Below, piece after piece: positions 38,001 to 41,000 of a DNA stretch of 64,000 nucleotides. How positions within the stretch are numbered: position 1 is the stretch's first letter; every line of letters starts with the position of its first letter. This DNA is from Escherichia coli O157:H7 (GTDB lineage Bacteria; Pseudomonadota; Gammaproteobacteria; Enterobacterales; Enterobacteriaceae), in the NCBI RefSeq assembly GCF_013167455.1, contig NZ_CP038328.1. The stretch is one strand, 5' to 3'. A program made the position numbers.

Positions 38001-41000
38001 CGTTATCGTGCTCCCACCCAGTCACTGGGCAGTTAACTAAAGGAATAGTGAATGGAATTTTTGGGCTACGATCGCCTACAGAACGAAACTGTTCGGCATT
38101 ATAGTGACCAAGAGCAACTTCAATTTTCTTATCAGAGTCATTGATTTCACAAGCGGATTTTAAAATCTCGCCATCAAAAACTATTTCACCATCGGTTGCA
38201 GCGGCATTACCTGCGAAAAGCGCAAGTAAGCCCGCAATAGCTGTTTTTGTAACTTTATTCATTTATAACCTTATCCTTGTAACAAGTACATAATCATATT
38301 TAATGTGAATATATGTTCAACATCTTTAAAGATTATACAGGTAGAAATATTTCATTGAACATTAAATAGACTAAACTTTAAGATTATATTTATATGCAAA
38401 TATTTGATATTTTCATTATATTGATATCAATTTTCTATGTATTCAAAAGAGTATAAGTGCATGACTTTGCTGCGCCAGGGGGCGAGTCAGAATACGAGAT
38501 GGTTTATTAATAGAACAAGTTATATGTATATCTAAAATTAAATTGTTGAACATAACTCCTTTTGCTATTGGCGTTATGTTCAACCCAGTCAAATGTTATT
38601 TAATATAATGCGTGACTGTTGCATAAGTTAATTTAAACATTTTGAGCAAATTTTTCATCTGGTTAGGTATTAATTAAACAAATAAAGTTACTGTGCAGCC
38701 ACAAAAACGAAGCCGGGATAGAGGTAGAGACTTTAGCCGTGAGAAAACGTTCTGTCGCATCCTGCTTTCCTTCGCCAGTCACCAGTAACAAAACCTCGCG
38801 GGCATTGAGAATATCCTTCAGGCCTAAGGTGATCCCACGAGTCACGGGGCGACCCGCGGTTTTTAACATCTCATGTTGCTGTGTTCTGGCATCAAGTTGA
38901 CTGATATGGCAGGCCGGTTGCAGGTTTTCTCCCGGTTCGTTCAGCCCAAGATGACCGTTTTTCCCCAATCCGAGAACGCATAAATCCAGACCGCCTTTGC
39001 GCGCAATCAGGTTCGTTACCCGTTCGCACTCTGTCTCATTTATCTCTTCGGAGCGAAAGCTGATGAGCTGGTCTTCACGTAGCCCCAGCGGCTGCACGAT
39101 ATGCTGTTGCAGGAAAGTTTCGCAGGTACCAGGCATCGTTAATGGCAGATCCACCCATTCGTCGAGCTTCACGAAGGTGAGCTGGCTGACATCAACCTGC
39201 TGCTAGTGGATTTTTTCTACCAGATAATGATACGTCAGTAATGGCGTGGCTCCGGTCGCCAGGCAAATCACGGCATCCGGTTTGCTACGGATCACGGCCA
39301 ATAAATATTCGCTGGCACGTTCACTTAACGCCGTATAGTTTTCAACTTGCTGAAGGGTTTGCACAGGATGAAATTCCTTAAGTAAAGAGGCACCGCCAGA
39401 CGCAGTGCCTCGTTCCATTTACAAAATGCCGAATGCGGAACAAACAATAGAGAGCACAAAAGTCACGCCGATTAACAGCACCGGATGCGCTTTTTTCACC
39501 CGCAGGAAGTAATACATCAGCAGGGTGTAGGCCATCGGTAAAATGTTCGGGAAGACTTTATCGAAGAAATCCTGTTGCAGCGCGACGCTGTGGGTACTGT
39601 CGATGGCAAACGATGTCACCACGTTAATATGCACATACGAAGCGATCAGCCCGCCGATTACCGTGATCCCGAGGATGGTTGCCGAGCGAGCAATCATCTG
39701 CGAGTTCTCTCGCACTTTATCGATCGCCTTCACGCCGACTGAATAACCGACGTGGGTCCAGCCGACGCGCAGGAAAAAGATAAGCAGGTAAACGGCGAAA
39801 AATAGAATCGGCCCCAGCAGGTTTCCCTGGCTGGCAAATGATGAGCAAATTCCCGCCATAATCGGCAACAAAGTAAACCAGAAAATCGCATCGCCAATCC
39901 CGGCGATTGGGCCAAACAGTGCCACTTTGAGGCCTTTAATGGTGTCGCGGTTTTCTCCTTTTTCTTCCATCGAAATTAATAACCCCATCAGGAATCCGAC
40001 CAGATTCGGGTGGGTATTAATAAATTCGAGGTTATCTTTCATCGCTGCGCTTAGGCCCGGTTTGTCATCCTTATAAATCTTTTTCAGGATCGGCAACATC
40101 GCCCAGGTAAAACCGCCCGCTTGCATCCTTTCGTAGTTAAAGCTCGCTTGCAGCAGCGACGAACGAAAGCCCAGACGGGTGATATCTTTTTTACTGATTT
40201 CAGATCCCATTGCTGTAGTCCTCTTCTTCATTTTTACTGGCAACGGGCTGCGGTTGCGCTTGCTGCCGGGATTTCGCATTGAAAAACTCATACACCGCAA
40301 AGCCTGCGCCCAGTACGGCAACCGGCAACAGGTTGCTGACCTGGATGTAGCAAACAAACAGGAAGCCGGCGATCAGGTAAGGGATATATTGTGCTTTGAA
40401 CATCACGCGCAGCAGCAAGCCAAAACCAACGGCAGGCAGAATACCGCCAGCCACTTCAAAGCCGTGGGTCAGCCAAGCGGGCATCGCTTTCACCAGCGCC
40501 TGCATCGCCCCTTGTGCCAGGTAAGTACAGAGGAAAGCAATCACCGCATACGCTGAAGCGACGATGAGCATCGTTGTCCAGTTAAGTCGGGAAAACGCTG
40601 CCGTATCCGCCTCTTTCGCGCATTTATCGGCTTTGGTCATAAATAATGAGAAAGCAGAATAGAAGAACAGAATGACGTACTGCATTAACAAACTAAACGG
40701 CAGGCCAAGACCAATTGCCGTTTTGGCATCAACGCCCGTAGACCATGCAATGACGGTGGTCATCAGACCCGCCATAATCGGGTTGGGCGGCTGAACACCA
40801 CCTGCAGGGGTTAATCCGGCGAAAGCCAACTCTGTCAGACCACCGGTAATTAAGCCAGTCTGAATATCACCGAGAATAGCGCCAGTTAGGGTACAAACGA
40901 TTATCGGGCGGAATAAAAATAAGGCTTCCAGCCAAAAATCAATCCCCAGAACGAAAACTAACGCCGCCAGGGATAATCCCTAAAGTAGGGTTATTTCATG

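What the first reader, a model, noticed from the sequence alone, without database searches (positions are those of the whole stretch)
38263..38662. 400-bp AT-rich gene-free region upstream of the yraH fimbrial operon
This AT-rich stretch with many A/T tracts lies between agaI and yraH. It is typical of silenced, phase-variable or H-NS-bound fimbrial promoters, and no ORF or RNA gene is recognisable.
Basis: inference. Interest (0 to 1): 0.25.

Follow-up and report, generated by a model that had tools for sequence, protein, structure and literature searches.

The report
H-NS-silenced promoter region of yra fimbriae
This 400-bp AT-rich gap is the already-described, H-NS-bound "promoter island" in front of the horizontally acquired, cryptic yraHIJK fimbrial operon of E. 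coli; it is real but ordinary, and I found no sign of a phase-variation switch.

Summary
Window 38263-38662 is exactly the agaI-stop to yraH-start spacer. It has 26.8% GC against 50.4% for the window and is among the lowest-GC 0.3% of 400-bp stretches. It contains no tRNA, no credible Rfam match, no tandem repeat and no conserved ORF.

The window is E. coli O157:H7. The K-12 orthologue is also 400 bp and about 97.5% identical, and it is already in the literature:
- It is one of 78 "promoter islands" bound by H-NS in ChIP data.
- It binds RpoD holoenzyme and carries an H-NS site in genomic SELEX.
- agaI is H-NS-bound only in strains that carry the neighbouring yraH-yraK segment.

The spacer is the upstream end of a ~5.4-kb yra island. 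The island is present in about 62% of 5,426 complete E. coli genomes, and its edge lies about 30 bp inside the agaI 3' end.

The "H-NS-bound/silenced" reading is therefore supported by orthology. The "phase-variable" reading is not supported:
- No genome carries either possible inverted form.
- There are no GATC sites and no simple repeats.
- There is no recombinase gene nearby.

Two small items remain unexplained: an ATGTTCAA motif present four times, and a 12-bp-arm hairpin downstream of agaI.

In this strain the adhesin gene yraK is broken by IS1203. Verdict: already known, low interest.

The parts
38263..38662 (.). AT-rich spacer between the agaI stop and the yraH start (26.8% GC); 5' regulatory region of yraHIJK
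38663..38692 (-). Last 10 codons of agaI. AT-rich and found only in yra+ strains; high identity to yra- genomes starts only at about 38693, which marks the island edge.
38222..38546 (.). Equivalent of the published K-12 'promoter island' 3285165-3285489 (U00096.2), converted using the yraH start as anchor
   Evidence: paper PMC3661553; coordinate conversion is my inference
38402..38430 (-). Promoter predicted by Shimada et al. 2014: TTGATA (38430..38425) - 17 nt - TCAAAT (38407..38402). Three of its hexamer positions vary between E. coli lineages.
38293..38320 (-). Proximal promoter-like site: TTGAAC (38320..38315) - 16 nt - TATGAT (38298..38293). It lies in a 78-bp stretch (38264-38341) that is invariant in 8 strains.
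38269..38278 (-). Shine-Dalgarno-like AAGGATAAGG, 6 nt upstream of the yraH ATG
   Evidence: read directly from the sequence
38545..38584 (-). Hairpin/palindrome GTTGAACATAAC...GTTATGTTCAAC with 12-bp perfect arms. As RNA: -18.1 kcal/mol, z -3.9. It sits 79 nt downstream of the agaI stop and is followed by AAUUUAAUUUUAG.
38313..38320 (+). ATGTTCAA motif, copy 1
38355..38362 (-). ATGTTCAA motif, copy 2
38546..38553 (-). ATGTTCAA motif, copy 3 (one hairpin arm)
38576..38583 (+). ATGTTCAA motif, copy 4 (the other hairpin arm)
38455..38500 (.). GC-rich patch (50-60% GC) that divides the spacer into two very AT-rich blocks
37678..38262 (-). yraH, fimbrial major subunit (Pfam Fimbrial, E = 1e-26)
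36903..37598 (-). yraI, fimbrial chaperone
34358..36874 (-). yraJ, usher; intact in this window
32298..34347 (-). yraK adhesin gene, split by IS1203/IS629. The transposase CDS is 32755..33968; the yraK fragments are 34024..34347 and 32298..32714.
38663..39418 (-). agaI pseudogene (internal stop at 39203-39205)

Best explanation
The spacer is the 5' regulatory end of the horizontally acquired yraHIJK chaperone-usher island. Its very AT-rich, TpA-rich DNA carries many overlapping sigma-70-like sites on both strands, so RNA polymerase binds it readily. The same composition makes it a preferred H-NS substrate. An H-NS filament covers the spacer, spills onto the agaI 3' end, and keeps the yraH promoter(s) silent under ordinary conditions. 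This is the 'promoter island' / xenogeneic-silencing arrangement.

Shown here: composition, promoter-like density, island boundaries, absence of switch features, and near-identity to K-12.
Taken from publications on the K-12, W3110 and SE11 orthologues: RNA polymerase binding and H-NS binding.
Inferred: that the same happens in this O157:H7 strain; which of the candidate promoters is used; and that the hairpin at 38545-38584 helps stop aga read-through.

In this strain the operon cannot make its tip adhesin, because yraK is split by IS1203.
For: Composition and promoter density:
- 26.8% GC, in the lowest 0.3% of 400-bp windows.
- TpA steps are 2.8-fold enriched. There are 23 promoter-like sites (>=8/12 matches) against 2.8 per 400 bp window-wide, split 12 on + and 11 on -.

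Transfer from K-12: the K-12 spacer has the same length and about 10 differences.

Published evidence on orthologues:
- It is listed among 78 promoter islands, bound by H-NS in two ChIP studies and flagged as foreign by four methods.
- It has an RpoD-holoenzyme SELEX peak with an H-NS site.
- H-NS binding on agaI is seen only in strains carrying yraH-yraK.
- The yra operon was gained by the E/B1/A lineage.
- Several cryptic chaperone-usher operons are reported to be under H-NS control (citing Korea 2010).
- yraHIJ is co-induced with the other cryptic fimbrial operons.

Island status shown here:
- The spacer is present once per genome, always next to agaI, in about 3,350-3,375 of 5,426 genomes.
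- yra- genomes have agaI abutting rsmI.

Sequence diversity is high (5.75 variable sites per 100 bp, against 1.2 in agaD). This fits the reported faster evolution of H-NS-bound upstream regions.

A distant yraH homologue in Ewingella also has a ~600-bp AT-rich leader region.
Against: - No H-NS or expression measurement exists for this strain in what I could read.
- Korea et al. 2010 and Low et al. 2006, which tested yra promoter fusions, are not held, so H-NS dependence of yra transcription itself is second-hand.
- There is no match to the H-NS nucleation motif TCGATAAATT at <=2 mismatches and no 10.5-bp AA/TT phasing.
- The H-NS column for this island is 'K' (Kahramanoglou + Oshima), not 'A' (all studies), so Grainger's data set did not score it.
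- The SELEX-predicted promoter hexamers vary between lineages, so the real start site is unknown.
Confidence: 0.85

Rival explanations
1. The spacer is an invertible, fimS-like promoter switch. A recombinase would flip the segment between inverted repeats and turn yra on or off.
For: Two candidate repeat pairs exist. One is an 11-nt perfect pair, TATGTTCAACA / TGTTGAACATA, at 38312-22 and 38544-54 with 221 bp between the arms. The other is a 17-nt 15/17 pair at 38249-65 and 38675-91 that brackets the whole spacer.
Against: - Queries built with either segment inverted find no genome with >=80% coverage among 5,426 complete E. coli genomes. The native order is found in about 3,300.
- Repeats of this size are near chance in this composition: P = 0.17 for an 11-nt perfect pair, about 0.07 for 17 nt with <=2 mismatches.
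- K-12 weakens the 17-nt pair without any compensating change.
- No recombinase gene is annotated in or beside the island.
Confidence: 0.02
2. The spacer works as a pap-type epigenetic switch (Dam methylation of two GATC sites competing with Lrp) or by slipped-strand repeat variation.
For: None beyond the general habit of fimbrial operons.
Against: - There are no GATC sites anywhere in 38163-38762.
- The longest homopolymer is 5 nt and there is no tandem repeat.
- The only length polymorphism seen is a single 1-nt indel in a T5 run, about 390 nt upstream of the yraH ATG.
- There are no papI/papB-like genes in the operon.
Confidence: 0.01
3. The spacer hides an unannotated gene: a small RNA, or the 49-codon ORF at 38443..38592 (-).
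For: - The 49-codon frame is open in all 8 strains compared.
- One local hairpin is significantly stable.
- Promoter islands are reported to make short abortive oligonucleotides.
Against: - There is no Rfam family match and no tRNA.
- The whole-spacer fold is not unusual, z = -1.7.
- The ORF starts with TTG and has no Pfam hit. Its changes between strains are mostly non-synonymous and include stop loss.
- The + strand 32-aa ORF is broken in most strains.
- Neither RefSeq annotation lists a feature here.
Confidence: 0.04
4. On top of H-NS silencing, the four ATGTTCAA(C) copies, two of which form a perfect 12-bp-arm palindrome, are operators for a specific regulator or counter-silencer. Alternatively or additionally, the palindrome acts as a weak intrinsic terminator that insulates yraH from aga-operon read-through.
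For: - ATGTTCAA occurs 4 times in 400 bp and only 6 times in the 64 kb. An 8-mer reaching 4 copies occurs in 3.7% of shuffles.
- All three ATGTTCAAC 9-mers of the window lie in the spacer.
- A 12-nt perfect inverted repeat has P = 0.048.
- The hairpin is -18.1 kcal/mol with z = -3.9, and none of 200 shuffles folds as well.
- It sits 79 nt after the agaI stop, on the transcribed strand, and is followed by a U-rich stretch.
- 31 of the 32 motif positions are invariant in 8 strains.
Against: - Significance is marginal and was assessed after the motif was seen.
- Motif conservation is no better than the spacer average (expected about 1.8 variable sites, observed 1).
- The motif is absent from the Ewingella homologue.
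- The terminator scan did not call the hairpin: the stem is AT-rich and the tail starts with AA.
- I could not match the motif to any known regulator.
Confidence: 0.15

Closest known systems
E. coli K-12 'promoter island' agaI/yraH (Panyukov & Ozoline 2013, PMC3661553; one of 78)
   Same: It is the orthologous locus: 400 bp in both strains and about 97.5% identical. Both are AT-rich, dense in promoter-like sites on both strands, and associated with foreign genes. H-NS binding is published for the K-12 copy.
   Different: There are about 10 substitutions. Here the flanking agaI is a pseudogene and yraK is disrupted by IS1203. H-NS and RNA polymerase occupancy have not been measured in this strain.
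H-NS-silenced promoters of other cryptic chaperone-usher operons, e.g. F9 fimbriae of UPEC (PMC3966885), and the sfm, yad, yeh and fimB/E spacers in the same promoter-island table
   Same: Each is a long AT-rich leader in front of the major-subunit gene with little expression in the laboratory. The F9 operon has been shown to be de-repressed in an hns mutant, with H-NS binding the promoter fragment. sfmA, yadN, yehD and fim spacers are also promoter islands.
   Different: For yra, I could only access indirect statements about H-NS control of transcription. No mapped transcription start or gel shift for yra was found.
fimS invertible element of type 1 fimbriae
   Same: Both are AT-rich regions upstream of a fimbrial major-subunit gene that contain short inverted repeats.
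   Different: No alternative orientation is seen in 5,426 genomes. There is no adjacent recombinase. The repeats are within chance expectation.
bgl-type silenced locus that can be activated by IS insertion
   Same: Both are silent, H-NS-bound upstream regions. One natural strain (22F46) carries IS1 inside the yra spacer with a 9-bp target duplication.
   Different: That IS1 sits between the proximal promoter-like site and the yraH ribosome-binding site. It may therefore disconnect the gene rather than activate it. No expression data are available.

Membership tests
H-NS-bound xenogeneic promoter region ('promoter island') | AT content far above the genome average over >=300 bp | tested here: met
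   73.3% AT against 49.6% for the window; lowest 0.3% of 400-bp windows
H-NS-bound xenogeneic promoter region ('promoter island') | Very high density of promoter-like sites on both strands | tested here: met
   23 sites (12 on +, 11 on -) against 2.8 per 400 bp window-wide, using a simple hexamer score. The orthologue is classified as a promoter island in print. The stricter built-in scan found only 2 sites, no more than in shuffles of the same composition.
H-NS-bound xenogeneic promoter region ('promoter island') | H-NS occupancy in vivo or in vitro | not testable with these tools
   Published for the K-12, W3110 and SE11 orthologues: two ChIP data sets, genomic SELEX, and segment-dependent binding on agaI.
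H-NS-bound xenogeneic promoter region ('promoter island') | Association with horizontally acquired genes | tested here: met
   The ~5.4-kb yra segment is present in about 62% of genomes. It is replaced by ~110 bp in yra- strains, and its edges lie at the 3' ends of agaI and rsmI. Published lineage gain.
H-NS-bound xenogeneic promoter region ('promoter island') | De-repression of the downstream operon when hns is deleted | not testable with these tools
   The primary paper (Korea et al. 2010) is not held. Only a secondary statement was available.
H-NS-bound xenogeneic promoter region ('promoter island') | High-affinity nucleation motif TCGATAAATT, or intrinsic curvature from phased A-tracts (accessory features, not obligatory) | tested here: not met
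   No motif hit at <=2 mismatches. The AA/TT periodicity peak is weak and lies at 11.5 bp, not 10.5 bp. A full curvature model was not run.
Invertible promoter switch (fimS type) | Both orientations occur in natural genomes | tested here: not met
   No genome among 5,426 matches either inverted construct over >=80% of its length.
Invertible promoter switch (fimS type) | Flanking inverted repeats beyond chance expectation | tested here: inconclusive
   An 11-nt perfect pair and a 17-nt 15/17 pair are present. Shuffle P values are 0.17 and about 0.07.
Invertible promoter switch (fimS type) | Linked tyrosine or serine recombinase gene | tested here: not met
   Annotated genes from rsmI to agaD include none. 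The only mobile-element gene is the IS1203 transposase in yraK.
Pap-type Dam/Lrp methylation switch | Two GATC sites within Lrp-binding regions upstream of the operon | tested here: not met
   No GATC sites in 38163-38762.
Slipped-strand (simple repeat) phase variation | Homopolymer or short tandem repeat tract in the promoter or 5' coding region | tested here: not met
   The longest run is 5 nt. Tandem Repeats Finder gives nothing at score >=30.
Known structured RNA (Rfam) or tRNA | Covariance-model or ARAGORN match | tested here: not met
   The best Rfam hits have E>1 and are eukaryotic families far below gathering score. No tRNA or tmRNA.

The most novel reading that the evidence does not exclude
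The four ATGTTCAA(C) copies, two of them forming a perfect 12-bp-arm palindrome 79 nt after agaI, would be the operator array of an unidentified yra-specific regulator or counter-silencer. Alternatively they would form a combined terminator/insulator that separates aga transcription from the silenced yra promoter. Either would give the first specific handle on when this cryptic fimbria is expressed.
Probability: 0.1. Interest if true: 0.35.

Novelty: already known. Interest (0 to 1): 0.1.

Why it matters
It matters little beyond correct annotation. The region is a textbook example of xenogeneic silencing. AT-rich DNA at the head of an acquired fimbrial island attracts both RNA polymerase and H-NS, and H-NS even spills onto the neighbouring core gene agaI. 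For O157:H7 specifically, the operon behind it lacks an intact adhesin gene, so the promoter's state probably has small phenotypic consequence in this strain. The IS polymorphisms at yraJ/yraK may explain why yraK sequence features appear in strain-outcome association studies. The only open question that could be tested is whether the repeated ATGTTCAAC motif or palindrome has a specific role.

Tried and rejected
- **Invertible switch.** I built two synthetic inverted versions (between the 11-nt repeats and between the 17-nt repeats) and searched all complete E. coli genomes. No genome matched.
- **Dam/Lrp and simple-repeat switches.** There are no GATC sites and no repeats.
- **Hidden RNA or protein.** Rfam at permissive E-value, ARAGORN, whole-spacer folding, ORF integrity across 8 strains and Pfam were all negative.
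- **Comparative test in other species.** Motif conservation outside E. coli could therefore be checked only against Ewingella, where the motif is absent.
- **H-NS motif and A-tract phasing.** Neither was informative. I did not run a full curvature model because I could not reproduce wedge-angle tables reliably from memory.
- **GalR sites.** The sites predicted in the literature near yraH and yraI lie inside the coding regions, not in the spacer.
- **Transcription start data and primary papers.** Thomason 2015, Korea 2010 and Low 2006 are not held.
- **Known regulators.** By eye, the ATGTTCAAC motif did not match the CRP, FNR, Fur, OmpR, Lrp, IHF or AgaR consensus sequences. This is my own knowledge; no database was available.

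Full report
**Observation.** The window matches E. coli O157:H7 at 100% identity. All genes around the finding lie on the minus strand. agaI is 38663..39418 and is a pseudogene with an internal stop at 39203-39205. yraH is 37678..38262, yraI 36903..37598 and yraJ 34358..36874. yraK is split by IS1203/IS629.

The interval 38263-38662 is therefore exactly the agaI-stop to yraH-start spacer. Its GC content is 26.75% against 50.4% for the window. Only 0.28% of 400-bp windows are as low, and the absolute minimum of the window starts at 38244.

I found no sign of a gene in it:
- There is no annotated feature in RefSeq for O157 or K-12.
- There is no tRNA, no tandem repeat, and no Rfam match better than E = 1.2.
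- The whole-spacer RNA fold is unremarkable, with z = -1.7.
- Of the two ORFs longer than 25 codons within the spacer, the 32-aa one carries stop codons in 6 of 8 strains.
- The 49-codon one starts with TTG, changes mostly non-synonymously and has no Pfam hit.

Three refinements apply. The AT-rich block runs about 30 bp into agaI, to about 38692. A ~45-bp GC-rich patch at about 38455-38500 divides it. True A-tracts are few and are not phased with the helix.

**What it is.** In 3,349-3,375 of 5,426 complete E. coli genomes the spacer is present once, always next to agaI, at 96.5-100% identity. In the other genomes, for example MS7163, only the body of agaI matches, and agaI lies 49 bp from the convergent rsmI.

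Alignment places the right edge of the difference at window 38692/38693, inside the agaI 3' end. The left edge is at the rsmI stop codon. So yraHIJK plus this spacer form a ~5.4-kb segment that replaces about 110 bp. AgaI ends ...LHSNFICLINT* in yra+ strains and ...LHNYFTCMIDEMCRR* in yra- strains.

Published phylogenomics states that the E/B1/A lineage acquired the yra operon.

**What is already known about it.** The K-12 spacer is also 400 bp and differs at about 10 positions.

- Panyukov & Ozoline 2013 (PMC3661553) list agaI/yraH (3285165-3285489, which corresponds to window about 38222-38546) among 78 'promoter islands'. These are regions with extreme densities of potential start points that bind RNA polymerase but give almost no full-length transcript. 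The paper marks this one as H-NS-bound in the Kahramanoglou and Oshima data and as foreign by four methods.
- Shimada et al. 2014 (PMC3946193) found an RpoD-holoenzyme genomic-SELEX peak in the agaI>yraH spacer, with an H-NS site in the same spacer. They proposed the promoter TTGATA-17-TCAAAT, which is window 38430..38402 on the minus strand.
- Higashi et al. 2016 (PMC4720273, S6 Table) list agaI among 42 core genes bound by H-NS only in strains that carry the neighbouring segment. Here that segment is yraH-yraK, present in K-12 and SE11 and absent in SE15.
- Secondary sources state that several cryptic chaperone-usher operons of K-12 are under H-NS control.
- Expression data show yraHIJ rising together with the other cryptic fimbrial operons. 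It is also higher in HUS-associated STEC.

**What the sequence adds.**

- TpA steps are 2.8-fold enriched.
- A simple hexamer score finds 23 promoter-like sites, 12 on + and 11 on -, against 2.8 per 400 bp in the window. This agrees with the promoter-island label.
- The stricter built-in scan finds two sites on the yraH strand. One is TTGAAC-16-TATGAT at 38320..38293.
- That site lies in a 78-bp stretch (38264-38341) that is invariant in eight diverse strains.
- By contrast, 13 of the 23 variable sites cluster in 38405-38502, and three of them fall in the SELEX-predicted hexamers.
- Overall the spacer has 5.75 variable sites per 100 bp. That is similar to yraH (5.3) and well above agaI (3.7) and agaD (1.2). 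It fits the reported faster evolution of H-NS-bound upstream regions.
- There is no match to the H-NS high-affinity motif at <=2 mismatches and no 10.5-bp AA/TT periodicity. Binding is therefore best attributed to bulk composition.

**Phase variation.** The spacer contains two candidate repeat pairs. One is an 11-nt perfect inverted repeat at 38312-22 / 38544-54. The other is a 17-nt 15/17 inverted repeat at 38249-65 / 38675-91.

I built both hypothetical inverted forms and searched all complete E. coli genomes. No genome covers >=80% of either construct. Such repeats are close to chance in this composition, with P = 0.17 and about 0.07.

There is also no GATC site and no homopolymer longer than 5 nt, no tandem repeat, and no recombinase or papI/B-like gene nearby.

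**Residual oddities.**

- ATGTTCAA occurs four times in the spacer and only six times in the 64 kb (shuffle P = 0.037).
- Two copies form a 12-bp-arm perfect palindrome at 38545-38584.
- As RNA on the transcribed strand this folds at -18.1 kcal/mol, with z = -3.9. It sits 79 nt after the agaI stop and is followed by AAUUUAAUUUUAG.
- It could be a weak terminator or insulator for aga transcription, or an operator for an unknown factor.
- The evidence is marginal. The motif is absent upstream of the 45%-identical Ewingella yraH homologue, although that homologue also has a ~600-bp AT-rich leader.

**Verdict.** The feature is real. The 'H-NS-bound/silenced' interpretation is supported through orthology with published data, and the 'phase-variable' interpretation is rejected. 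It is already known and of low interest.

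Noticed in passing
window 32298-34347: The yraK adhesin gene is split by an IS1203/IS629 copy (transposase CDS 32755..33968) and about 350 bp of yraK is lost. 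yraH, yraI and yraJ are intact. Another O157:H7 strain (PV15-279) instead has the IS near the yraJ 3' end plus an internal stop in yraJ. This IS polymorphism may underlie the many yraK features reported in an O157 outcome-prediction study (PMC12711010).
   Followed up: partly
window 38663-39418 (internal stop at 39203-39205, minus strand): agaI is a pseudogene in this strain and in other O157:H7 genomes. It is intact in K-12 and in the other E. coli genomes examined.
   Followed up: partly
window 38663-38692; L002 5909-6000: The edge of the yra island lies inside the agaI 3' end. yra+ strains end AgaI with ...SNFICLINT and yra- strains with ...NYFTCMIDEMCRR. The faint residual similarity (F-x-C-x-I) suggests a recombination junction rather than a clean insertion. 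The rsmI stop codon also differs between the two states.
   Followed up: partly
L010 (strain 22F46) 530-1300, equivalent to window 38283-38291: IS1 is inserted in the spacer with a 9-bp target duplication, CAAGTACAT. It sits between the proximal promoter-like -10 and the yraH ribosome-binding site. In strain A30 (L013) an IS903B copy replaces the spacer, yraH and yraI.
   Followed up: partly
window 57892-59294 and 59930-60567: The only other stretches of the window with <=32% GC are the yhaC gene (57997..59184) and the yhaB/tdcR-tdcA area. yhaC and the tdcA/tdcR spacer also appear in the published list of 78 promoter islands.
   Followed up: partly
window 38249-38265 and 38675-38691: A 17-nt inverted repeat (15/17) pairs the yraH start-codon region with the outermost bases of the island inside agaI. 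It is probably chance (P about 0.07), and K-12 weakens it without any compensating change.
   Followed up: yes
L004 (Xenorhabdus szentirmaii DSM 16338 contig NZ_NIBV01000010.1, 2,233 bp): A short contig encodes a YraH fragment 92% identical to the E. coli protein. This is most likely E. coli contamination in that assembly.
   Followed up: no
L005 3300-4000 (Ewingella americana): A yraH homologue at 45% identity, followed by ORFs of chaperone and usher size, also sits behind a ~600-bp AT-rich region (27-43% GC against about 55% in the flanks). A long AT-rich leader may therefore be general for this operon family.
   Followed up: partly
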